This document shows positions 36,393-48,496 of a stretch of 64,000 nt of DNA, piece after piece. Position numbers and translations under genes: made by a program. Under the pieces are notes generated by a model. It saw only the letters and a program-made list of their open reading frames with translations, did no database searches and was not told the origin of the DNA. Positions within the stretch are counted from its first letter, which is position 1. Every line of letters starts with the position of its first letter. Source of the DNA: Candidatus Enterousia sp. (GTDB lineage Bacteria; Pseudomonadota; Alphaproteobacteria; Rs-D84); assembly GCA_045635585.1 (NCBI GenBank), contig JAZTWA010000001.1, positions 28-64,027 on the forward strand. The letters run 5' to 3'.

Positions 36393-37124
36393 ATGACACG
36401 ATATCGGGTAAATCTTGAATATGATGGAACAAATCTAATTGGTTGGCAAGAAAATCGCCAAGGTCCATCTGTTCAATCTGTTGTCAAAGATGCAATTGAA
36501 AAATTTTGTGGTGCGCGCCCCGATGTTGTTGGGGCGGGGCGTACTGATGCGGGGGTGCATGCAATTTCTATGGTTGCACACTTTGATATTGATGGTGAAC
36601 ATAGTGCGCAAACTGTAATGCGTGCGTTGAATTTTTATTTGGTTGGCATGCCTGTGGCTGTGACTGATTGTGAAATTGCAAGTGATGAATTTCATGCGCG
36701 TTTTGATTGTGTTGCACGTCATTATCGTTATGTGGTTTTAAATCGTGGTGCATCGCCTGTGTTGCAAAAGAATCGTGTTTATTGGGTTCCGCGCAGATTA
36801 AATATTGATGCGATGCGTGCTGCCGCGGACAGATTGATTGGCAATCATGATTTTACCAGTTTTCGTGCATCAGAATGTCAGGCAAAGTCGCCGGTAAAAA
36901 CGTTGGATAAAATCGAAATTATTACAGATGGTGATATGATATATTTTGATTTTTCTGCGCGTTCATTTTTACATCATATGGTGCGTAATATTGTTGGAAC
37001 CTTGGTTGAAATTGGTTTGGGTAAACCATATGATATTGATGAAATTTTGAATGCAAAAAATCGCAGTGCTGCGGGACCAACGGCGCCATCTGCGGGATTG
37101 TATTTCGTTCGTGCAGATTATTAA
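36393..37124 (+). CDS. truA: tRNA pseudouridine(38-40) synthase
   Basis: GAGRTDAGVHA catalytic Asp motif; RSFLHHMVRNIVG. Confidence 0.93.
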   Translation: MTRYRVNLEYDGTNLIGWQENRQGPSVQSVVKDAIEKFCGARPDVVGAGRTDAGVHAISMVAHFDIDGEHSAQTVMRALNFYLVGMPVAVTDCEIASDEFHARFDCVARHYRYVVLNRGASPVLQKNRVYWVPRRLNIDAMRAAADRLIGNHDFTSFRASECQAKSPVKTLDKIEIITDGDMIYFDFSARSFLHHMVRNIVGTLVEIGLGKPYDIDEILNAKNRSAAGPTAPSAGLYFVRADY

Positions 37125-39061
37125 TGCCAACGTCGATTGTTTGGAATATATTTTATACGTCCACTGGGGTATATAACAAATCCATTGCGCAAAATTTTGT
37201 CGTCGCATTTTGATGATGTGATATCAAAATAAGAAACAATATAGTCAATATCAGGATTGTTGCATAAATCAACAATATTGTTCATCAGTGGAACAAATTT
37301 TTGAATATATACTAAATGCCAATTTTCTGTTTTGAAATCATATATGCCTTTATCGTGTTTAATACGTATGTTTTTGGTGTTTGTATCTTGACCATGGAAT
37401 TTCTTCCATGTATCAAAAGCAAAGTAATGATTTGATGCGCGCGATTTGTTAAATTTTATTGTATTATCAGAATCTATAAACGCAATCAATTCATGGTCAT
37501 GCGTCACCATAAATATTGGTTTTATGTTTGTGCAAACAATCGTAATTGCGATTGCTTGCAAGATAGAAAATAAAATATAGTTTATCTTAATTCTGATTGG
37601 TCGAATTAATATCAAAGACATAAATCCGATTATTGAAATTATAATTGCAGAATTGGGTATGTGTGGAATATTCAGTGTTGCATATGGCAAATCAGTAATA
37701 TTCTTTGCAATTTGTAAAGTTACATCATAAATACTGCTTGCAAATTTTATCGGTGCAAACAAACCCATGGTTGCCGCAATAACACCAATCATTACCAGTG
37801 GCATAATTGCCAATGAAAATATTGGTAATAATATTATGTTGCCAATAATTGAATATATCGGTATTGCGCCAAAATGTGCTGCAACAAAAGGCAAAGTAAA
37901 CAGTGTCGCCACGAAAGTGGTTAATATCATTGCATATATGATTCTAAATATTTTGTTCTTTGGCATTTTGGGTTTGATAACACTGTACAACCAAACCAAT
38001 CCAAATACTGCGGCAAAAGACAATTGAAATCCCGCTTGCATGACATAATGTGGATTAATCAGAAAGATGATACAAAATACCAATGCAACATTACGCAGCG
38101 ATATGGCCGTACGTCCAAATATAAATGCCATAAATACCAAAGTTGTCATTAAAAATGCCCGCATTGTTGCCACATCAATTCCGGATAAAAATAAATAAAA
38201 TATTAAACCAACCCATGCGCAAATTGTTGCAGGTACACGTGCGGGCAACCTGCGTGTTATATATGGAATTGAACGAAATATCAGCATGAATATAGTAAAT
38301 AACCAACCGCCTACCAGCGTCATATGAAAACCACTGATTGACCAAACGTGTCCAATGCCCACCGCGGTCCATATTTCTTTGTCTGATTTTGGGATTACAT
38401 TTTTGTATCCTAATACCAATCCATCAACCAAGAAAGAATCTGATAATTTATGTAAATTATTTCTTAAATCATTTACGAATCTAAATTTTTGTTTGTGTTC
38501 CAAAACATCTATTGCTGTAACATACCCTGTTGCGGTCAGATTGTTAAAATACGCCCATCGTGCATAGTCAAATTCATCTGGTACATATGATTTAGTTGGT
38601 TGAAATAAATTTATATTTGTTCGAATTTTATCGCCAATATTTGGTGCGACAAGCCCGTCACCCAAAGATACACGCACAAGTGTATTCTTGCTTTCCGCGT
38701 TAATTTCATTTGCATCAATTGATAAATATAATCTGGTGCCTTTATCGGTATAATCAGTTGATACCACATCTGCAATTAATTCCAAATTGTGTACATCGTG
38801 TTTTAATTTGGGTGTATCAATAAAATTTGTAAATGTTGCCGCATAAAAGAAACCAAACAGCATTAACATTATTGCACGCACCAAATATGGAATACGTGGA
38901 ATCCAAATACAAATTGCCAATATTAACGTGATAACGTATTTAAATTGTAAATCGGGTTCATGACCCATTGTAAAATACAACGCTGCGCCCATTGCTATTA
39001 AAAAAGGCACATATAAAAACACATTTTGAATCTGATTGTTAAACCATTTGCGCATACCCAA
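37121..39061 (-). CDS. comEC: ComEC/Rec2-family DNA internalisation channel protein
   Basis: 646 aa polytopic membrane protein with the ComEC competence-domain pattern (...GISGFHMTLVGG...). Confidence 0.8.
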   Translation of the reverse strand: MGMRKWFNNQIQNVFLYVPFLIAMGAALYFTMGHEPDLQFKYVITLILAICIWIPRIPYLVRAIMLMLFGFFYAATFTNFIDTPKLKHDVHNLELIADVVSTDYTDKGTRLYLSIDANEINAESKNTLVRVSLGDGLVAPNIGDKIRTNINLFQPTKSYVPDEFDYARWAYFNNLTATGYVTAIDVLEHKQKFRFVNDLRNNLHKLSDSFLVDGLVLGYKNVIPKSDKEIWTAVGIGHVWSISGFHMTLVGGWLFTIFMLIFRSIPYITRRLPARVPATICAWVGLIFYLFLSGIDVATMRAFLMTTLVFMAFIFGRTAISLRNVALVFCIIFLINPHYVMQAGFQLSFAAVFGLVWLYSVIKPKMPKNKIFRIIYAMILTTFVATLFTLPFVAAHFGAIPIYSIIGNIILLPIFSLAIMPLVMIGVIAATMGLFAPIKFASSIYDVTLQIAKNITDLPYATLNIPHIPNSAIIISIIGFMSLILIRPIRIKINYILFSILQAIAITIVCTNIKPIFMVTHDHELIAFIDSDNTIKFNKSRASNHYFAFDTWKKFHGQDTNTKNIRIKHDKGIYDFKTENWHLVYIQKFVPLMNNIVDLCNNPDIDYIVSYFDITSSKCDDKILRNGFVIYPSGRIKYIPNNRRWH

Positions 39062-41115: not shown

Positions 41116-41138
41116 ATCCCCATATTTGGGGATTTTTT
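41116..41138. terminator. Bidirectional terminator between pyk and the Stealth gene
   Basis: AATCCCC-ATATTT-GGGGATT flanked by A- and T-runs. Confidence 0.75.
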
Positions 41139-42141
41139 ATTTTTCAAATTCGCATTTTTTTGGAAATCTTGAATTTAAAAAAGAATAATTGTTTAATCGA
41201 TTTTCTTCTGTTGAATTTATAGAATCGTTTATACAAAATATTGGTGGTTTTTGATTCTGTAAATTTGATAGTATTGCATCAGTACAATAAACAGGCGAAT
41301 TTTTAATACTATGCCAATATATTGTATTGTATAAAAAATTAATTAAACGGTTTTTTGTACGTTTTTTATTTCTAGCGCGTATAAATACTGATTTGCCAAA
41401 GATTTTATCAAATAAACTAAATATAGTCCGTTGAATTTCATTATTTTGGCGAAAGCGATTGGATAACTGTGCGTCGATACACCCAGTTATCAAAGGGTGT
41501 TTTCTGCATCTGTTCCATGTTGATTTACGATAAGGGTCGATTCCATGTGACGGCATATATTTATACAATTTCTTACCAAATACGTCATAAATTTTTCTTT
41601 GTGACACAAAGATACATTGTTGATAATCATTTTTTCGAACAATATATCGTTCGATGTTTTTGTAATTGCCTCGTCTTTTATTGTATCTGAATTTTGCACG
41701 TCCGCGTCTATCAAAAAAGAAGTCAGGATTTAATTCGCGGTTAAAAAAAGTATCATCATTTGCCAAGATGAAATATTCGCCCAACGCCTTGATGTTTCCG
41801 ATACACATTTCGATATTTGTTGAATTAAAAGTTGGTAATGCGTGTAACGGCATAATATCTTTGTGTGGCACAATTGTGATTTTAGGATGATTCACATTCA
41901 ACCATTTTGGTATTTGATTAAATCCGGTAATTATAAAAATATGATTTATCCATGGAACACATTCTGCGACACTTCTCAAAGAATATTTTAATTCATCATT
42001 ATCTCGCCATCGTGCATTTGATGTTGCACTGTGTGACAAGTTTGTTTTGGTACATGTAAATTCCAACCATTTTTGTTTTTCTTGTATCCATTGTGGGTCA
42101 TTACTATCAACCCACAGATACACCAAGTCAATTTTGTTCAT
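41137..42141 (-). CDS. Stealth-family hexose-1-phosphoryl transferase-like protein
   Basis: CR1 IDLVYLWVDSNDPQW and CR2 RDNDELKYSLRSVAECVPWINHIFIIT. Start trimmed to MNKIDL. Confidence 0.8.
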   Translation of the reverse strand: MNKIDLVYLWVDSNDPQWIQEKQKWLEFTCTKTNLSHSATSNARWRDNDELKYSLRSVAECVPWINHIFIITGFNQIPKWLNVNHPKITIVPHKDIMPLHALPTFNSTNIEMCIGNIKALGEYFILANDDTFFNRELNPDFFFDRRGRAKFRYNKRRGNYKNIERYIVRKNDYQQCIFVSQRKIYDVFGKKLYKYMPSHGIDPYRKSTWNRCRKHPLITGCIDAQLSNRFRQNNEIQRTIFSLFDKIFGKSVFIRARNKKRTKNRLINFLYNTIYWHSIKNSPVYCTDAILSNLQNQKPPIFCINDSINSTEENRLNNYSFLNSRFPKKCEFEK

Positions 42142-42429
42142 TTTATATCCCTTTTTATACCAACAAAAAAACCGTCGAAATATTGACGGTCGGGTATTTC
42201 CAAGGTCACAAAACAAATGACTCTGTGGTTTTTGGTTTAACCTATTGTATCACCACAGATACCCGACCATATCCAGTCAGGTATATCAACGTACATACTG
42301 CACGTGACAAATTCATTTTTTTACGATGTTGAATTTTTGTTTTCATCGTGTTTTGCGGATCTTGGGAATCCGGAACCTTATACTATATAAAAGATTCAAC
42401 ACGTATTATGAAGTATAAAAAAAGAAAAT

Positions 42430-43365: not shown

Positions 43366-43392
43366 TAAAAAAAGTGCGCAAAAAATGCGCAC
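43366..43392 (-). terminator. Second rho-independent terminator downstream of the virB10-like gene
   Basis: On the minus strand: GTGCGCA-TTTTT-TGCGCAC followed by a T-run. Confidence 0.6.
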
Positions 43393-43447
43393 AATATATG
43401 GATATGTTTTATATATTATTTAAATCCTTTTGGTTTGTATTGTTTAT

Positions 43448-43470
43448 TAAAAAACCCGCCATTGGCGGGT
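43448..43470 (-). terminator. Rho-independent terminator directly after the virB10-like gene
   Basis: On the minus strand: CCCGCC-AAT-GGCGGG followed by TTTTTT. Confidence 0.75.
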
Positions 43471-43475
43471 TAAAT

Positions 43476-45917
43476 TTATTCTGCGTTTACCACAATCGGT
43501 GGGAAACAGTCGCCACCACCTTCGGGGCAACAATTGAAACCCATTTCACCCATATCAGTAAATATTTCACCGGCGCAGCAACCATTTGCATCTGGCATTG
43601 AACCGTCTAAGCATGTTAATACTTCTTCTGCTGGGGCAACTTCATCTGCGACTGGTGTGTCAAATGGATTTACAACATATCCTTCATCGTCATATGTAAT
43701 ACCAATCATTTCATCATATGCGGCTTGCTGTTCTTCTGTTCGATCACCTTCGGTGCCATATGTATCTTGATACTTTTTAACCTCGCTTTGATGATATGCA
43801 TCTTGCTGTATCTGTGTTTTCGATTGATAGTTCAAAGATTCACAGAATGTCTTTAATGAGCGATAATCGTATCCGCCACACTGATTTCCTGTGCATTCGG
43901 CTTTGACGCGCCATAAATCCTTAGAGTCTTGTTCACAATAATCAGTCATATTAAATGAACGTGCCTGACCAACCCAATCTGAACCGCTTCTATCAACCGT
44001 CACTTTATCCATAACAGAGTTATAGTCAAATCTTCTTTGTCCCCTTGATCTGTTTGCATACTTTTCAACATAGCATTTCTTTGATTCATCTGTGCATGCA
44101 ACAATTAAGTCTTCTGGCGAATAAACGGTTATACGTGTTCCTGCGGCGATTGTAAATGGTGGCACTGTGTTATCCATCATATCAACCATTAATTTTTGTG
44201 CAATTTGATTCCATGTTGTAATAATTTCATTTTTCGCCAATTCTGATGAACGCATTGTACCACTTTGAACAACAGTATTATTGTCCAAATCAATTTGGTT
44301 AACAAATGCATCACTGATTGGTGCGATCAAGTTTATCGCTGCGGGCACCATCGCTGTAATCATTGGCATAAAGAATTGTTCGATGTAATCTGTACTGCCG
44401 CGACCTGGGACACCAACGCGTCCTTGGCTATCACCTGAATATGGTTGGCTGCCTTCAGAGTTAAAATTAAATTCAACACCATCTGGTCTGATAAATTGAT
44501 ACCAATTAATTTCCATACGTCCAATTGATTTATATGGCCCCGGCAAATTACCCGTAACATATCCCAGCATCAGTGTTCCAGCGGGGATAATAATATTGCG
44601 CCCATTATCAGAATATACGTTCCTATCAACCGTTGCGCGTACTGGTAATGGCTTGCCTTTTTCGTAAACATCTGCGTCGGCGCGAACGTCGGATACAATT
44701 GTGGCCGGAATTGGTTTGAATTGACGTAAAACAAAACTTCTATCATATGGCTGTGACGCAACAATAGCGGTATCATCACCCGATGTTCCGCGGAATTCGG
44801 ATTCTTCGTCGCGTTTTTTTAATATGTCTTCACCGCCATCCATCCCACGTAACATACCACCGCTGTCAGATGGGGTGTCCAATTGAACGGCACGATTAAC
44901 TGTTTTTACCGCAGGCGCATTACTAAGTTGTGGCAACACACCCGATGAAATGGCCGAATAACCAATATGTTCTGCATCTGTTCCGATTTTTTTACCACTT
45001 TTGTCTGTGATAATACCATTATCTGGGTTGTATGTTCCGGCGGGTTCGTTGCATTCTGTATCCGAAAAAGGATGGTATTTGTACGCACCACCCGATGGTT
45101 TTATCCAACCAATTTGTTTGCCCGAATTTCCATATGCAGGAAAAGCAAAGTCGGAACAAGTTTCAACGGGTCTGACATAATTATCCACTGGTTCTTCTTG
45201 GAATTTAACCGACGGTGCCAATGATTCTAATTCGCGTTTAATGTTTTGTTTTGTCGAAGATACTGTTACCGGTTCTGGTTCTTCGTATTCGTATTCGTAT
45301 TCATCTATTTCTGGTTCTTTAATTTGTTCTGATTTTACCATTGGTTCTGCAACCGGTTCTGGCTGTTTTACTGGTTCTGGAACCACAACCGGTTCTGGTT
45401 TTTGTTCTACAACAGGCAATGTTGCACCCAATGTTACAACGATTTTTGATGTTTTGTTCATTGAATCAGATTCATCTGCATCATGCCATTGTATGTTAAC
45501 TGGAACCTGTGTAATACCCAATGCCGCGGTGGGTGCAAATGACATCGCCACATTACAAGACAATTCATCGTTTATCTGGCCCATGCCAACACATGTATCT
45601 GTAACAGAAAAACCATTAACATCAGATTCTGTGCCCACAGAAACTATTTTTATTGGCGCGCTGGCAGTGATTTTAACGGTTGTTTTTTCAGAGTTACCAA
45701 CCACCACATCGCCCCAGTTAATCATATCGGGTGCAATATTTATTTCGATTGGTGCCTTAGCCACAATCTGTGGTTTTGAATCATCGTTTCCCAAAACCAA
45801 GATTAATAAAATAATCACAACAACAAACGCCACAACCATCAGCAACCATTGAATATGCTTTGGCGTATTTTTGCGCATTTCAGCAAATTGTTGTTTTAAT
45901 TTTTTCATATCACACAT
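43476..45917 (-). CDS. virB10: VirB10/TrbI-like T4SS core protein with extra domains (813 aa; alternative start 45908)
   Basis: N-terminal TM anchor. Pro-rich linker PEPVVVPEPVKQPEPVAEP. TrbI/VirB10 core: IIIPAGTLMLGYV...GRMEINWYQFIRPDGVEF...GRVGVPGRGSTDYIEQFF...PPFTIAAGTRITVYSPEDL. Plus an N-proximal beta-rich module and a ~200-aa Cys-rich tail. Confidence 0.8.
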   Translation of the reverse strand: MCDMKKLKQQFAEMRKNTPKHIQWLLMVVAFVVVIILLILVLGNDDSKPQIVAKAPIEINIAPDMINWGDVVVGNSEKTTVKITASAPIKIVSVGTESDVNGFSVTDTCVGMGQINDELSCNVAMSFAPTAALGITQVPVNIQWHDADESDSMNKTSKIVVTLGATLPVVEQKPEPVVVPEPVKQPEPVAEPMVKSEQIKEPEIDEYEYEYEEPEPVTVSSTKQNIKRELESLAPSVKFQEEPVDNYVRPVETCSDFAFPAYGNSGKQIGWIKPSGGAYKYHPFSDTECNEPAGTYNPDNGIITDKSGKKIGTDAEHIGYSAISSGVLPQLSNAPAVKTVNRAVQLDTPSDSGGMLRGMDGGEDILKKRDEESEFRGTSGDDTAIVASQPYDRSFVLRQFKPIPATIVSDVRADADVYEKGKPLPVRATVDRNVYSDNGRNIIIPAGTLMLGYVTGNLPGPYKSIGRMEINWYQFIRPDGVEFNFNSEGSQPYSGDSQGRVGVPGRGSTDYIEQFFMPMITAMVPAAINLIAPISDAFVNQIDLDNNTVVQSGTMRSSELAKNEIITTWNQIAQKLMVDMMDNTVPPFTIAAGTRITVYSPEDLIVACTDESKKCYVEKYANRSRGQRRFDYNSVMDKVTVDRSGSDWVGQARSFNMTDYCEQDSKDLWRVKAECTGNQCGGYDYRSLKTFCESLNYQSKTQIQQDAYHQSEVKKYQDTYGTEGDRTEEQQAAYDEMIGITYDDEGYVVNPFDTPVADEVAPAEEVLTCLDGSMPDANGCCAGEIFTDMGEMGFNCCPEGGGDCFPPIVVNAE

Positions 45918-45967: not shown

Positions 45968-47491
45968 TTACTGCATTCTGACGACACTGCAACTGGTACC
46001 ACTGAATTTTAATAATTTATCACACAGTGTTTGTGCAGTTTCGATATTTGCCAATGGTCCAATGCGCAAACGATATTGACGTGCTGCGGATGATGTAGAA
46101 CCCAAATCGCCAACACCTTGTTCGTCAACCGCAAAGAATACCATGTTTTTATATGGTGTTAACAGACCTTGTCCTTCTTCACCACTAAATTTCGCCAACA
46201 GATTCGCCCAATAATCGTCCAATGCCTTGACAGACGTATCTGATGCTAATTCAACAGCAACCCCTGATTGATTACTGGATATCAATGGGATATTTGTTTG
46301 TGGTAAATATGCGCCTGCGGTATTTCTTTGTGCGGGCAACATGTTTACAACACTACCTGAACCAGACGTTGGCATTGTTTGTGGTACTGTGAAACCGGCC
46401 GGCATATAATAACCTGCGCCTGTCGATTGGTTAACATTGCCCGATACGCCTGAATAAATTGGTGTTCCTGTGTATGGCATGCCCATGCTCATTGCGGCCA
46501 TGCTATCTGTGTATGCAATATTGCTAAGTGATTGACCTGACAGCATGCTTTGTGCAACATTTGCTTCGGCCAATGCCATCACAGATGCAGTATCTGCAAT
46601 CAAGAATGGTTTTTCACGTTTTTTGATGCATACAATTCTTTGACCACTACGCAGAACCATGTCGCCCACCGCTTCAACAATTAATAATCTGCCGTCTTCA
46701 CCATCTGTTCTGAATCCAACCGGTGATTCCCCACCTTCGACCAACAATGATACAACAGGACGTTGGGTCATTGCGATAACCTTGTCGCCAAAGTCAATAT
46801 ATGTAAATATTCTGTCGCGCCATACGCGTTCTGGGGCGATTACATAGTCGTCTGGATTTGGAACAAAAATATCCAAGTCAAATCTGAATTCTGATGGATC
46901 AATTTTCATTGATTTAATCCATCCGTAATCTTCGCCGTCAACACCAACCGTATTGGACTTTGTGGCCGCTTTTTTAAAGATTGAACCCGCGGCGCCAGTT
47001 GACTTTGCGGTGGCTACATTTGGTAATGCAGCGTTCCCATCCAGTGTTATATCCACCTGTGAATATGTGATTTCACTGGAATTTGATGGTTCTGCGCGCA
47101 GATAAAATATGTATTTGTTGCCCGATGCGCCCGTAACAATCATATTGGTATCAGAACCTTGGTTCGAAGTTTGTGGGGACAAGAACATTGTTCTGTCACC
47201 TTGGGTTGCATCAATATCGAATTGAGCTTGGTCGCCGACGACGATATCTGCAATTTGTTCGCCGTTTGGTAACGTCAACATCGTAACCATACCATTACGT
47301 AACTTGATTGGTAAAACAGAACCCGACGACCATGCCAACTGGGCATATCCTGGTTTAAGGCTGCCGGCGGCCATGTTCGCGGTTGGATTATCCCATGCTT
47401 CTTGAATGCCAACTGCATATGCTGGCAATGCCAAAATGCTGGTCAAACATAATGTAATAAAATTAAATCTGAATGCTTTTACAAAACTCAT
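45968..47491 (-). CDS. virB9: VirB9/TrbG/CagX-like T4SS core protein with a SPOR-like C-terminal domain (507 aa)
   Basis: Signal peptide. N-domain LPNGEQIADIVVGD...TNMIVTGASGNKYIFYLRA. C-domain PERVWRDRIFTYIDFGDK...LLIVEAVGDMVLRSGQRIVCIKK. Tail QYRLRIGPLANIETAQTLCDKLLKFSGTSCSVV resembles SPOR. Confidence 0.8.
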   Translation of the reverse strand: MSFVKAFRFNFITLCLTSILALPAYAVGIQEAWDNPTANMAAGSLKPGYAQLAWSSGSVLPIKLRNGMVTMLTLPNGEQIADIVVGDQAQFDIDATQGDRTMFLSPQTSNQGSDTNMIVTGASGNKYIFYLRAEPSNSSEITYSQVDITLDGNAALPNVATAKSTGAAGSIFKKAATKSNTVGVDGEDYGWIKSMKIDPSEFRFDLDIFVPNPDDYVIAPERVWRDRIFTYIDFGDKVIAMTQRPVVSLLVEGGESPVGFRTDGEDGRLLIVEAVGDMVLRSGQRIVCIKKREKPFLIADTASVMALAEANVAQSMLSGQSLSNIAYTDSMAAMSMGMPYTGTPIYSGVSGNVNQSTGAGYYMPAGFTVPQTMPTSGSGSVVNMLPAQRNTAGAYLPQTNIPLISSNQSGVAVELASDTSVKALDDYWANLLAKFSGEEGQGLLTPYKNMVFFAVDEQGVGDLGSTSSAARQYRLRIGPLANIETAQTLCDKLLKFSGTSCSVVRMQ

Positions 47492-47524: not shown

Positions 47525-48205
47525 TTATGGCAAGAAACCTGTATCCAATGGGTCGCCGTTATCAGACAAGATTTCGTATCCTGTTACGTGCAACCCCAAC
47601 GGGTTGTCAATGCGATCGGCCCATTTTACGCGAACGTCATCGTTTTGCCCCAATTTTATTTTTATTGTATAATCTTTTGGGCTGGTTGGTCCAGTGTTAT
47701 CTTCACAAAAATAGCGAATTTTTACCTGATATACATCTTGTTGTCTTGATTCAGATACCAATTTCATTGGTTGCTTGTCCAAGAATCCGACGTTGCATCT
47801 GAAATCAAAGTTTGGCATACCACTCATCATCGCGTTAAACATTTGTGTGTCTGCAAATTGTGCATACACGTCATTTGTTGACCAGTTTTTTACGATTCCG
47901 CTTTCTGTGCCCCATTTTTTCTGCATAACCTTTGCGTTTGTCAGAACTTCATTACGTGCACGAACATATTCGCGAATAAAGGCCCCTTTGTAAATGTCCA
48001 GATTTTCGTCTTGGGGCGGCATTTCGACCAGTTTTATGTCTTGGTTGTCGCGTACTTCGGTCGTCAAGAAAAAAACCTGGGGTCTGTTCAACGGAAACAT
48101 ATTTGTTATTGTTAATACCAATACGCCCAAAACAACAACCGCACTTGCTAACACAAATGTCATCAGTCTGGATATTAAAATTGGCGGTTCTACGCGGTTT
48201 TGCAC
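47525..48205 (-). CDS. virB8: VirB8/TrbF-like bitopic T4SS protein (226 aa, GTG start)
   Basis: GTG at 48203..48205, preceded by AAGGAGAGG. One TM helix. FIREYVRARNE, and the conserved NPxG motif in RIDNPLGLHVTGYEI. The longer track ORF would overlap tRNA-Trp. Confidence 0.8.
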   Translation of the reverse strand: MQNRVEPPILISRLMTFVLASAVVVLGVLVLTITNMFPLNRPQVFFLTTEVRDNQDIKLVEMPPQDENLDIYKGAFIREYVRARNEVLTNAKVMQKKWGTESGIVKNWSTNDVYAQFADTQMFNAMMSGMPNFDFRCNVGFLDKQPMKLVSESRQQDVYQVKIRYFCEDNTGPTSPKDYTIKIKLGQNDDVRVKWADRIDNPLGLHVTGYEILSDNGDPLDTGFLP

Positions 48206-48230
48206 GAATTCCTCTCCTTGTGTTAAAGTG

Positions 48231-48260
48231 ATTGTAGAAAAAAACACACCACCTGCGCAA
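48231..48260 (-). promoter_or_regulatory. Candidate promoter of the virB8-9-10-like operon
   Basis: On the minus strand: TTGCGC, 18 nt, TACAAT, just upstream of the RBS. Confidence 0.3.
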
Positions 48261-48422
48261 GAAAAAATTTGCAAAATCAAAATCCTAAATATAAAAAGGT
48301 GTTTTAAAATGTTCTTGCGCAAAGAAATGAAAAATATTATAATATTTCCGCTTGCTTTTTTGTATTGGTGTGCTATCCTTTCGCAGACTATGTGGTGGTA
48401 TATCATATATGCAACAGGCAAC

Positions 48423-48496
48423 AGGGGCATAGTTCAACGGTAGAATATCGGTCTCCAAAACCGCGGATGAGGGTTCGATTCCTTCTGCCCCTGCCA
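48423..48496 (+). tRNA. tRNA-Trp (anticodon CCA)
   Basis: AGGGGCATAGTTCAACGGTAGAATATCGGTCTCCAAAACCGCGGATGAGGGTTCGATTCCTTCTGCCCCTGCCA is close to E. coli tRNA-Trp. Canonical position upstream of secE-nusG. Confidence 0.92.

What the first reader, a model, noticed from the sequence alone, without database searches (positions are those of the whole stretch)
43476..45917. VirB10-like protein carries an extra periplasmic beta-rich module and a ~200-aa Cys-rich C-terminal tail
A beta-strand-rich segment lies between the TM anchor and the Pro-rich linker (INIAPDMINWGDVVVGNSEKTTVKITASAPIKIVSVGTESDVNGFSVTDTCVG...VPVNIQWHD). It reads like an Ig-like / PapD-like (ASH-type) sandwich. After the end of the TrbI core (..AGTRITVYSPEDLIV) the protein continues for about 200 residues. 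This extension contains many cysteines (CTDESKKCYVEKY..., CEQDSKDLWRVKAECTGNQCGG..., CLDGSMPDANGCCAGEIFTDMGEMGFNCCPEGGGDC) and an acidic stretch. In canonical systems the VirB10 C-terminal region lines the outer-membrane channel. An extension here could therefore be surface-exposed, acting as an adhesin, a plug or a receptor-binding module. That is inference.
Basis: partly seen in the sequence, partly recalled or inferred. Interest (0 to 1): 0.6.

Follow-up and report, generated by a model that had tools for sequence, protein, structure and literature searches.

The report
VirB10 with three extra disulfide modules
The channel protein (VirB10) of a type IV secretion machine in a tiny-genome gut bacterium (Candidatus Enterousia) carries three extra folded, cysteine-paired modules, and its last 45 or so residues are an undescribed six-cysteine mini-domain that three other envelope proteins of the same bacterium also end with.

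Summary
Window 43476..45917(-) encodes an 813-aa VirB10 (the likely start is Met4, giving 810 aa), directly after virB8 and virB9.

**Modules outside the TrbI core (391-605):**
- **ASH/PapD-like sandwich (55-166):** supported by AlphaFold (pLDDT about 90) and Foldseek.
- **Two-Cys beta module (249-320):**
- **Tail (606-813):** 208 aa, hydrophilic, 12 Cys.

The tail is not a frameshift artefact. It is in frame in every genome searched in the bacterium's family, and its two ends are predicted to fold.

**Terminal six-Cys module:**
- It has no match in Pfam, NCBIfam or the PDB.
- It is present in 92/92 genomes of the family, 0/29 genomes of sister families and 0 of about 397 other Alphaproteobacteria.
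- It also ends three other envelope proteins of this genome, one of them little more than the module.

**Reading:** the surface-adhesin idea is weak. The tail leaves the barrel below the outer membrane and has no membrane-crossing segment. It is most likely a disulfide-stapled periplasmic decoration whose tip is a shared docking module.

This scan reached the same reading earlier on other Enterousia genomes (e1-1373557, e1-1251730).

Verdict: a new variant of a known kind, of moderate interest.

The parts
43476..45917 (-). virB10 ORF, 813 aa as listed. The likely true start is Met4 at 45908, giving 810 aa.
   Evidence: TrbI 61.6 bits, cutoff 35. P0002 and all homologs start at M-K/S-K-L-K-Q-Q-F.
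45789..45848 (-). Inner-membrane anchor helix (residues 24-43), preceded by a short cytoplasmic N-terminus.
   Evidence: It is the most hydrophobic 19-mer of the protein (KD 3.56) and is predicted helical at 20-42.
45420..45755 (-). ASH/PapD-like Ig sandwich (residues 55-166) with Cys pair C109/C121.
   Evidence: AF2 pLDDT is about 90. Foldseek hits 6fvi, 2ys4, 2e6j and MSP. choice_anch_D scores E 1e-5. All 120 homologs have 2 Cys here. The module is also present in VirB10 of the other families of the order.
45174..45419 (-). Pro/Glu-rich variable linker (residues 167-248), the periplasm-spanning spacer.
   Evidence: Mean pairwise identity is 33% and length varies from 55 to 97 aa. pLDDT is below 50.
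44958..45173 (-). Conserved two-Cys beta module (residues 249-320) with motifs CSDFAFPxY, GWIKPxGGAY.FHPFSD and YNPDNGIITD.
   Evidence: Mean pairwise identity is 76% and C254/C289 are invariant. AF2 predicts six short strands at pLDDT 75-89. Pfam has no hit. A shorter version occurs across the order.
44103..44747 (-). TrbI/VirB10 C-terminal barrel domain (residues 391-605). It has no Cys.
   Evidence: Pfam PF03743 covers 402-604. Foldseek matches TrwE 7o3j_A, CagY 6x6s and X. citri 6gyb_C. Mean pairwise identity is 83%.
44175..44390 (-). Antenna projection inside the barrel domain: two helices (510-530 and 558-581) joined by an almost invariant 27-aa loop (NQIDLDNNTVVQSG).
   Evidence: Both helices are predicted. 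Helix 1 is the second most hydrophobic segment of the protein. The loop has 90% mean pairwise identity and a fixed length. The role of the equivalent helices in R388 is taken from PMC9259494.
43818..44102 (-). Proximal tail module (residues 606-700): an alpha/beta fold with 6 Cys here (4, 6 or 8 in homologs) and a W-x-GQ-x-RSF motif.
   Evidence: In the tail-only AF2 model, pLDDT is 82-96 over about 661-700. C608, C661 and C692 are invariant, and the Cys count is always even. No structural match was found.
43617..43817 (-). Variable helical, acidic and Gln-rich spacer with a conserved LGxxY..G.v.NPF hairpin (residues 701-767).
   Evidence: Identity is 26-32%, except 57% for the hairpin. Predicted helices lie at 700-720 and 728-738.
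43494..43616 (-). Terminal six-Cys mini-domain (residues 768-808): C-x10-CC-x14-CC-x6-C-F-P-P, always at the extreme C-terminus.
   Evidence: Mean pairwise identity is 83% and all 6 Cys are invariant. pLDDT is about 85 with a beta-hairpin. The profile A4 match lies at G000:C1:43521-43652, which equals window 43494-43625. Pfam, NCBIfam and PDB give no hit.
43374..43471 (-). Two terminator-like hairpins that close the virB8-virB9-virB10 unit.
   Evidence: One search finds them at 43471-43453 and 43392-43374, both on the minus strand with T-runs.
45968..47491 (-). virB9 (CagX/VirB9 domain plus a C-terminal SPOR-like tail), immediately upstream.
   Evidence: Pfam CagX scores 3.3e-23. SPOR scores 20.5 bits, just under its cutoff of 21.
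47525..48430 (-). virB8, the first gene of the unit.
   Evidence: Pfam VirB8 scores 1.1e-8, at 35.7 bits against a cutoff of 23.2.

Best explanation
This is the VirB10 subunit of a chromosomal VirB/VirD4-type type IV secretion system whose genes are scattered in islands. The system is kept by the whole order Rs-D84, a group of gut Alphaproteobacteria with genomes of about 1 Mb that includes Candidatus Enterousia.

**Shown:**
- The protein has the canonical VirB10 plan: cytoplasmic N-terminus, one inner-membrane helix, a Pro-rich spacer, and a C-terminal barrel with two outer-membrane helices.
- It also has three extra extracytoplasmic modules, each with an even and conserved number of cysteines.
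- The ASH-like sandwich sits next to the inner membrane, and the two-Cys beta module sits before the barrel. Both are conserved across the order.
- The 208-aa tail after the barrel is an innovation of the family.
- The tail's last 45 or so residues are a six-Cys mini-domain that is specific to the family. VirB10 carries it in all 8 genera sampled. In Enterousia it also ends three other envelope proteins: a secreted peptide of about 50 aa, a secreted acidic protein of 269 aa, and a 755-aa inner-membrane protein with a Pro/Glu-rich periplasmic spacer.

**Inferred:**
- The cysteines form disulfides made by the membrane-anchored DsbA-like enzyme.
- The tail stays on the periplasmic side, hanging from the 14-fold O-layer barrel ring under the outer membrane.
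- The tail's tip acts as a docking or assembly module. It binds a common partner near the outer membrane, or the same modules on the other three proteins. That would stiffen the core complex and perhaps recruit lineage-specific accessory proteins.
- The ASH and middle modules probably add extra periplasmic rings, as the enlarged Cag and Dot/Icm machines have.
For: **Identity and context**
- TrbI scores 61.6 bits against a cutoff of 35, with VirB9 and VirB8 adjacent.
- Foldseek matches solved VirB10 C-terminal domains.
- VirB11-like (TIGR02788, 145 bits) and VirD4-like proteins are encoded in this genome.
- VirB3-VirB4 form a separate island in relative G003.
- Among the 41 genomes searched (G000 and 40 relatives), VirB10 is found in 39 and VirB4 in 37.

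**The tail is real**
- The top 120 of 897 homologs cover 99-100% of the query, except two at 68-69%.
- The module sits in ORFs of 770-880 aa without stops.

**Fold**
- The ASH-like module has pLDDT about 90 and the middle module about 85.
- In the tail-only model, tail module A reaches 82-96 and the terminal module about 85.

**Disulfides**
- Cys counts are 2, 2, 0, 4/6/8 and 6 per module in all 120 sequences, never odd.
- A DsbA-like protein with a TM anchor and a CGYC site is encoded at C11:67337-68215.

**Shared module**
- Four carriers occur in G000.
- Stand-alone and multi-copy carriers occur in metagenomes.
- Counts are 92/92 family genomes, 0/29 in the other families of the order and 0 real hits in about 397 other Alphaproteobacteria.
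- VirB10 is the carrier in the sister genera checked.
- The module is as conserved as the barrel, at 83%.

**Topology**
- The tail follows the last barrel strands and is hydrophilic, with a maximum KD of 0.58.
- In R388 only the two C-terminal-domain helices and their loop cross the outer membrane (PMC9259494).
- Two of the other carriers have inner-membrane anchors or Pro/Glu-rich spacers that fit a need to reach the outer membrane.
Against: - No partner of the module has been identified, and nothing here shows binding.
- The AlphaFold models are monomeric. The barrel region has low confidence (pLDDT below 50 over 496-595), so the position of the tail relative to the ring is not modelled.
- Disulfide pairing is inferred from Cys parity and context, not from coordinates or chemistry.
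- The organism is an anaerobe without a detectable DsbB.
- VirB4 is missing from this assembly, which is 92% complete. VirB6 was not detected in 31 genomes of the genus. The completeness of the machine therefore rests partly on relatives and on model sensitivity.
- A free secreted copy of the module could equally point to a function outside the T4SS.
Confidence: 0.6

Rival explanations
1. Surface-exposed adhesin, plug or receptor-binding module. The tail would reach the outside of the cell and contact the partner or host cell that these metabolically dependent bacteria need.
For: - The lineage is predicted to depend on other cells (PMC12306168), so a contact device would make biological sense.
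- Small disulfide-rich domains are typical of extracellular proteins.
- A free secreted copy of the module exists.
- The ASH/choice-of-anchor-D type module is common in surface proteins.
Against: - The tail begins after the last barrel strands, below the outer membrane.
- It has no hydrophobic or amphipathic crossing segment.
- In solved systems only the antenna helices and their loop reach the surface.
- Fourteen tails of 208 aa would have to pass through or around the channel.
- The ASH module sits next to the inner membrane, not at the distal end.
- The terminal module's near-invariance (83% identity) is unlike surface-exposed, host-facing domains, which tend to vary.
Confidence: 0.13
2. 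Metal-binding or redox-sensing tail. The CC...CC doublets of the terminal module would coordinate Zn, Cu or an Fe-S centre, with C769-C804 closing the loop. This would gate or regulate the channel in response to metal or redox state.
For: - Di-Cys motifs in a C-terminal extension can bind zinc with nanomolar affinity (plant HMA4, PMC6255694, found).
- The gut lumen is reducing, and no DsbB was found.
- Four clustered thiols with fixed spacing are invariant.
Against: - Every other Cys in the protein occurs in isolated pairs, which fit disulfides and not metal sites.
- A DsbA-like oxidase is encoded.
- The module has no His or extra acidic ligands in fixed positions other than E784 and D803.
- A weak, non-significant structural echo is to granulin, a disulfide ladder that also uses CC doublets.
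Confidence: 0.12
3. Released peptide. The terminal module would be cleaved off VirB10 and the other carriers, and would act as a secreted cysteine-knot peptide (a signal, toxin or effector), with the carriers serving as precursors.
For: - An 80-aa precursor with a signal peptide would yield little more than the module.
- Metagenomic proteins carry 2-3 tandem copies separated by spacers (P0181 and P0225), as in some polyprotein precursors.
Against: - No conserved cleavage motif precedes the module. The spacer in front of it is the least conserved part of the tail, at 26% identity.
- A structural channel subunit present in 14 copies is an odd precursor.
- The module is always C-terminal in VirB10 and was retained there in all 8 genera sampled.
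Confidence: 0.05
4. Artefact. The tail would be a frameshift fusion of a downstream ORF, or a disordered low-complexity appendage.
For: None was found. Only the middle of the tail (701-767) is variable and acidic or Gln-rich.
Against: - The tail is in frame in hundreds of independent assemblies, including a closed circular genome (L064).
- Cys positions are invariant.
- The fold is predicted at pLDDT 82-96 and about 85.
Confidence: 0.01

Closest known systems
Canonical VirB10/TrbI of minimal VirB/D4 systems (A. tumefaciens VirB10, pKM101 TraF, R388 TrwE, X. citri VirB10)
   Same: It has the same bitopic plan: cytoplasmic N-terminus, one TM helix, a Pro-rich spacer, and a C-terminal TrbI barrel with a two-helix antenna. 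It is also encoded after virB8 and virB9. Pfam TrbI is above cutoff, and Foldseek matches 7o3j_A, 8rt6_A and 6gyb_C.
   Different: - It is roughly twice the length of the canonical proteins.
- It has an ASH-like sandwich after the TM helix, a two-Cys beta module before the barrel, and a 208-aa 12-Cys tail after it.
- The NCBIfam VirB10 equivalog score (60.9 bits) is far below its cutoff of 220.
- The genes are chromosomal and scattered, not a single plasmid operon.
Enlarged VirB10 homologs CagY (H. pylori Cag) and DotG (Legionella Dot/Icm)
   Same: These are VirB10 barrels decorated with large lineage-specific regions that build extra periplasmic rings. CagY chains are the best sequence matches in the PDB and also appear as fold matches (6x6s_AY and 6odi_b).
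   Different: In those proteins the additions lie N-terminal to the barrel, and the barrel ends the protein (from general knowledge of these families). Here a folded Cys-rich tail follows the barrel. There is no repeat region, and no sequence similarity outside the barrel.
Rickettsiales vir homolog (rvh) T4SS
   Same: It is a chromosomal P-type T4SS retained in a reduced alphaproteobacterial genome, with genes split into islands. Here virB3-virB4 lie apart from virB8-10, and virB11 and virD4 lie elsewhere.
   Different: No VirB6 was detected. Gene duplication typical of rvh was not tested. Only one VirB10 per genome was found. The decorations described here are not known from RvhB10 (from memory, not tested).
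ASH / PapD-like / MSP Ig-fold domains (Pfam PF15780; NCBIfam choice-of-anchor D)
   Same: The beta sandwich is about 110 aa. Foldseek gives E 2.3e-5 and a target-normalised TM of 0.60 to the CEP192 ASH domain, and also hits HYDIN and MSP. Weak sequence hits exist.
   Different: The sequence scores are below the family cutoffs for this protein. It has its own conserved Cys pair. Its setting, next to the membrane in a T4SS channel subunit, is not a described one.
Granulin-type stacked beta-hairpin disulfide ladders
   Same: Both are small domains with six or more Cys that include CC doublets and a CCP motif. A beta-hairpin is predicted, and one short alignment to granulin C was found (2jyu, 23 columns, rmsd 3.1).
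   Different: The match is not significant (E 6.4, probability 0.08). The Cys spacing differs (C-x10-CC-x14-CC-x6-C). There is no sequence hit to any PDB chain. This is a lead only.

Membership tests
VirB10/TrbI (Pfam PF03743) | C-terminal TrbI barrel domain scoring above the family's gathering cutoff | tested here: met
   It scores 61.6 bits against a cutoff of 35, covering residues 402-604 and profile positions 7-186 of 188. All 31 aligned homologs match.
VirB10/TrbI (Pfam PF03743) | Bitopic inner-membrane topology with a Pro-rich periplasmic spacer | tested here: met
   There is a single strong hydrophobic helix at 25-43. The Pro/Glu-rich variable segment spans 167-248.
VirB10/TrbI (Pfam PF03743) | Two-helix antenna projection inside the barrel domain | tested here: inconclusive
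   Helices 510-530 and 558-581 are predicted, and helix 1 is hydrophobic. However, model confidence there is below 50, and no multimer model or experiment is available.
VirB10/TrbI (Pfam PF03743) | Encoded next to VirB8 and VirB9 | tested here: met
   VirB9 (CagX, 3.3e-23) and VirB8 (1.1e-8) lie directly upstream on the same strand.
NCBIfam T4SS_VirB10 equivalog (NF038091) | Score above the equivalog cutoff of 220 bits | tested here: not met
   It scores 60.9 bits. The protein is a divergent family member and not an equivalog of the curated set.
Complete VirB/VirD4 T4SS | VirB4 ATPase in the same genome | tested here: inconclusive
   VirB4 was not found in G000, which is 92% complete in 28 contigs. 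It was found, at about 805-830 aa, in 37 of the 41 genomes searched, including same-genus genomes. An assembly gap is the likely cause.
Complete VirB/VirD4 T4SS | VirB11 and VirD4 ATPases | tested here: met
   C11:15002-15997 matches TIGR02788 VirB11 at 2.2e-42. C5:56287-58539 matches VirD4/TraG models at 1e-30 to 1e-42. Both are below the equivalog cutoffs.
Complete VirB/VirD4 T4SS | VirB6/TrbL channel subunit | tested here: not met
   No match reaches the cutoff in G000 or in 30 other genomes of the genus. The model may be too insensitive for a divergent VirB6.
ComB-type DNA-uptake T4SS (NCBIfam ComB10, NF038092) | ComB10 equivalog score, and a system that lacks VirD4 and VirB11 | tested here: not met
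   It scores 46.4 bits against a cutoff of 300. VirD4-like and VirB11-like genes are present. That ComB systems lack these two is from general knowledge.
Conjugative T4SS | A relaxase in the genome | tested here: not met
   There is no PF03432 or PF08751 match in G000. Other relaxase families were not searched.
ASH / PapD-like Ig domain (PF15780; choice-of-anchor D, NF012200) | Fold: a seven- to eight-stranded sandwich of about 110 aa that superposes on ASH/MSP domains | tested here: met
   pLDDT is about 90. Foldseek gives E 2.3e-5 to 6fvi (target-normalised TM 0.60) and also hits 2ys4, 2e6j and 1msp.
ASH / PapD-like Ig domain (PF15780; choice-of-anchor D, NF012200) | Sequence score above the family cutoff | tested here: not met
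   choice_anch_D scores 26 bits against a cutoff of 45. Pfam ASH matches only 2 of 31 homologs, with a best E of 2.1e-5, and does not match this protein.
Granulin-like disulfide ladder | Significant structural or sequence match to granulin modules | tested here: not met
   Foldseek gives E 6.4 over 23 columns. The module profile has no PDB sequence hit at E up to 10.

The most novel reading that the evidence does not exclude
The six-Cys terminal module is an assembly tag. It would bring the three other module-bearing envelope proteins (the roughly 50-aa secreted peptide, the 269-aa acidic protein and the 755-aa inner-membrane protein with a Pro/Glu spacer) onto the VirB10 ring. That would create a lineage-specific, enlarged outer part of the T4SS that Enterousia uses to attach to, or draw material from, the partner cells it depends on. 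The four proteins would then be new T4SS subunits, and the module a new kind of subunit-recruitment domain.
Probability: 0.2. Interest if true: 0.75.

Novelty: new variant of a known kind. Interest (0 to 1): 0.5.

Why it matters
Order Rs-D84, which includes Candidatus Enterousia, is a widespread gut lineage of humans, ruminants and birds. Its genomes are under 1 Mb, it has no respiration and almost no biosynthesis, and it is thought to live off other cells (PMC12306168). How it contacts those cells is unknown, and the paper read here that analyses the lineage's gene content (PMC12306168) does not mention a secretion system.

A type IV secretion core was found in 39 of the 41 genomes searched, so it is one of the few candidate interaction machines. 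Its channel protein has been rebuilt with three extra disulfide-stapled modules.

The six-Cys terminal module is an undescribed domain family with a clean phylogenetic boundary and four carriers per genome. This gives a concrete handle for asking what docks onto the machine. For T4SS structural biology, it would be an example of a folded domain appended after the VirB10 barrel, rather than before it as in CagY and DotG.

Tried and rejected
- **Frameshift or fusion artefact:** rejected. The top 120 of 897 homologs cover 99-100% of the query, except two at 68-69%. The same architecture occurs in 80 genomic loci, including a closed genome, and the 92 family genomes show no stops in the listed matches.
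- **Disordered tail:** rejected for its two ends. Only residues 701-767 are variable.
- **Naming the tail, the middle module or the stand-alone carriers:** Pfam and NCBIfam gave nothing even at E up to 10.
- **Structural analogues of the tail:** Foldseek against PDB and BFVD found nothing below E 0.5. A PDB sequence search with the module profile gave zero hits.
- **VirB4 absence as a real feature of an orphan core:** rejected as the main reading, because 37 of the 41 genomes searched have VirB4 elsewhere.
- **ComB-like DNA uptake:** disfavoured, because VirD4-like and VirB11-like genes are present.
- **Conjugation:** no relaxase of two major families was found.
- **Literature:** no paper on a Cys-rich or C-terminally extended VirB10 was found.
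- **Cys covariation:** my first test used wrong positions (673/678 instead of 675/680). The region-wise parity count from the same call is what I rely on.


Full report
**1.

- Pfam TrbI matches residues 402-604 at 61.6 bits (cutoff 35) and ends at profile position 186 of 188. The last 208 or so residues therefore lie outside the canonical domain.
- The gene follows virB9 (45968..47491; CagX domain plus a SPOR-like end) and virB8 (47525..48430) on the same strand.
- Two terminator-like hairpins close the unit.
- Homologs, and the gene caller's own version (P0002, 810 aa), begin at Met4, so the likely start is 45908.

**2. Where it comes from**

- The window lies in a 0.93-Mb assembly of 28 contigs, 92% complete.
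- Related loci come from Candidatus Enterousia and unnamed gut Alphaproteobacteria MAGs of humans, ruminants, birds and other animals. They include a closed circular genome of 958 kb.
- The literature places Enterousia in order Rs-D84. It describes genomes under 1 Mb, no respiration, minimal biosynthesis, and a presumed partner-dependent lifestyle. PMC12306168, the one paper read here that analyses the lineage's gene content, does not mention a secretion system.

**3. The machine around it**

- Among the 41 genomes searched (G000 and 40 relatives from 10 genera and 6 families), a single VirB10 is present in 39.
- VirB4 is present in 37 of the 41, at a different chromosomal site.
- In relative G003, virB3-virB4 form their own island.
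- This genome lacks a detectable VirB4, most likely because of an assembly gap.
- It does encode a VirB11-like ATPase and a VirD4-like coupling protein on other contigs.
- No VirB6/TrbL match was found in 31 genomes of the genus.
- No relaxase of two main families was found here.

The picture is a chromosomal, scattered VirB/D4-type system. Its layout resembles the Rickettsiales rvh system more than a plasmid conjugation operon or a ComB DNA-uptake system.

**4. Anatomy of the protein**

An alignment of 120 full-length homologs (52-86% identical) and two AlphaFold models give the following modules.

| Residues | Module | Key evidence |
|---|---|---|
| 1-23 | Cytoplasmic N-terminus | Precedes the TM helix |
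| 24-43 | TM helix | KD 3.56 |
| 55-166 | Beta sandwich | pLDDT about 90 |
| 167-248 | Pro/Glu-rich linker | 33% identity, variable length |
| 249-320 | Beta module | 76% identity, invariant C254/C289, pLDDT 75-89 |
| 391-605 | TrbI barrel | 83% identity, no Cys; two helices (510-530, 558-581) joined by a 27-aa loop that is 90% identical |
| 606-700 | Tail module A | 6 Cys, pLDDT up to 96 |
| 701-767 | Spacer | Variable, acidic and Gln-rich, with one conserved hairpin |
| 768-808 | Terminal module | C-x10-CC-x14-CC-x6-C-FPP; 83% identity, six invariant Cys, pLDDT about 85 |

**5.

- Foldseek's best PDB hits are the CEP192 ASH domain (6fvi, E 2.3e-5, target-normalised TM 0.60), HYDIN PapD-like domains and nematode MSP. 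These rank alongside the expected VirB10 barrels from R388, Cag and Xanthomonas.
- Sequence support is weak but consistent. choice-of-anchor D scores E 1e-5, below its cutoff. Pfam ASH matches 2 of 31 homologs.
- Multi-repeat proteins matched this segment in the exhaustive search (P0219 and P0251).

**6. The tail is neither an artefact nor disordered**

- It is in frame in hundreds of independent assemblies.
- Cys counts per module are 2, 2, 0, 4/6/8 and 6 in all 120 sequences, never odd. This is the signature of paired cysteines in an extracytoplasmic protein.
- The genome encodes a membrane-anchored DsbA-like protein with a CGYC site, although no DsbB was found.
- The tail has no recognisable relative. 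Nothing was found in Pfam or NCBIfam. Foldseek found nothing below E 0.5 in the PDB or BFVD.
- The only echo is a non-significant 23-column alignment to granulin C, which is another CC-doublet hairpin ladder.

**7. The tip of the tail is a portable domain**

- Metagenomic proteins with signal peptides carry one to three copies of it, always including one at the extreme C-terminus (P0181, P0225 and P0259).
- This genome has three further carriers:
  - an 80-aa precursor that is essentially a signal peptide plus the module (C12:30168-30410);
  - the adjacent 269-aa secreted acidic protein (C12:29335-30144);
  - a 755-aa protein with a cytoplasmic coiled coil, one TM helix and a long Pro/Glu-rich periplasmic spacer that ends in the module (C16:50824-53091).
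- A 46-position profile of the module finds it in 92 of 92 genomes of the family. Copy number is 2-4, mostly 4, in the genus and 1-2 in sister genera. It finds none in 29 genomes of the other five families of the order.
- It finds nothing real in about 397 other Alphaproteobacteria.
- In the sister genera checked, the carrier is VirB10, so VirB10 is the constant carrier across the family.
- VirB10 proteins of the other families keep the ASH-like and middle modules but have short, Cys-free, acidic or Gly/Tyr-rich tails.
- The two N-terminal additions are therefore order-wide, and the Cys-rich tail is a family-level innovation.

**8. Where the tail probably sits**

- In the R388 structure paper, the outer-membrane-spanning elements are the two helices of the VirB10 C-terminal domain, and their connecting loop reaches the cell surface (PMC9259494).
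- Here the chain returns from those helices into barrel strands (582-605) before the tail starts.
- The tail is hydrophilic throughout, with a maximum KD of 0.58.
- The simplest reading is that fourteen tails hang from the barrel ring on the periplasmic side.
- Surface exposure would need a route through or around the channel, and nothing found here supports one.

**9. Most likely function**

*Shown:* a canonical VirB10 plan with three extra folded, Cys-paired extracytoplasmic modules, and a family-specific terminal module shared by four envelope proteins.

*Inferred:*
- The disulfide-stapled tail decorates and stiffens the outer-membrane core complex.
- Its tip is a docking or assembly module that binds a common partner near the outer membrane, or the same module on the other carriers.
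- Two of the other carriers look built to span the periplasm, which fits this reading.
- The ASH and middle modules probably contribute additional periplasmic rings, by analogy with the enlarged Cag and Dot/Icm machines.

I put this at about 0.6. The rivals are a surface adhesin (0.13), a metal or redox site built from the CC doublets (0.12; di-Cys zinc sites exist, PMC6255694), a released cysteine-knot peptide (0.05) and an artefact (about 0.01).

**10. Relation to earlier notes of this scan**

After forming the reading above, I found that follow-ups on other Enterousia genomes (e1-1373557 and e1-1251730) had reached the same core conclusions. This report adds:
- the family, order and class counts for the module;
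- the finding that VirB10 is its constant carrier;
- the order-wide spread of the ASH and middle modules;
- the Cys-parity test;
- the DsbA-like gene;
- the evidence that motor ATPases exist (VirB4 in relatives, VirB11 and VirD4 here). This bears on the question left open in e1-3218238 and argues against the ComB-like idea of e1-3593327.

**11. Limits**

- The partner of the module is unknown.
- Absences of VirB6, VirB2/5/7 and relaxases rest on profile sensitivity and on incomplete genomes.

**12. Verdict**

This is a new variant of a known kind: a decorated VirB10 with an undescribed six-Cys C-terminal domain family. Interest is moderate, at 0.5.

Noticed in passing
window 44244-44324 (residues 531-557 of VirB10): The 27-aa loop between the two antenna helices, which is the part expected to reach the cell surface, is almost invariant (NQIDLDNNTVVQSG; 90% mean pairwise identity, fixed length). 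It is more conserved than the barrel itself. Other families of the order have different and longer loops. This is an unusual constraint for a surface loop.
   Followed up: partly
window 45968-47491: VirB9 carries a C-terminal extension of about 190 aa that ends in a SPOR-like segment (Pfam SPOR 20.5 bits, cutoff 21). This suggests peptidoglycan anchoring of the core complex.
   Followed up: partly
G000 C12:28592-30410: Directly after lolC/E-like and lolD-like genes lies a three-gene run. It consists of a 247-aa TM protein with repeated Cys pairs, the 269-aa acidic module-bearing protein and the 80-aa module-only precursor. The 269-aa/80-aa pair is adjacent in other genomes of the genus too (for example G041, G042, G052).
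   Followed up: partly
G000 C16:46251-53091: The 755-aa module-bearing protein follows a GcrA-like gene. Upstream, on the other strand, lie two Cys-rich secreted proteins (296 and 303 aa), a 565-aa membrane protein and a small polytopic membrane protein that was not identified.
   Followed up: no
proteins P0174, P0178, P0185, P0192 and others: Metagenomes hold giant VirB10 relatives of 1,900-2,400 aa. Their TrbI domain sits near the C-terminus and is followed by about 100-130 further residues. Tails after the barrel are thus not unique to this family, although these ones were not examined.
   Followed up: no
G000 whole genome: No VirB4 (PF03135, TIGR00929) is present in this 92%-complete assembly, although 37 of the 41 genomes searched have one. 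This is probably an assembly gap rather than a loss.
   Followed up: yes
protein P0171: This is a 382-aa metagenomic protein with an unrelated, signal-less N-terminal region joined to the distal half of the VirB10 tail. It is either an assembly chimera or a genuine domain shuffle.
   Followed up: no
window 37121-39061 and 41137-42216: ComEC (Competence plus DUF4131) and a lone Stealth-family gene lie a few kb downstream of the virB unit, on the same strand.
   Followed up: no
G000 C12:12782-13279: A 165-aa polytopic membrane protein has an N-terminal CPVC motif and a weak VKOR match (E 0.007, below cutoff). It is a possible DsbB substitute in a genome with a DsbA-like gene but no DsbB.
   Followed up: no
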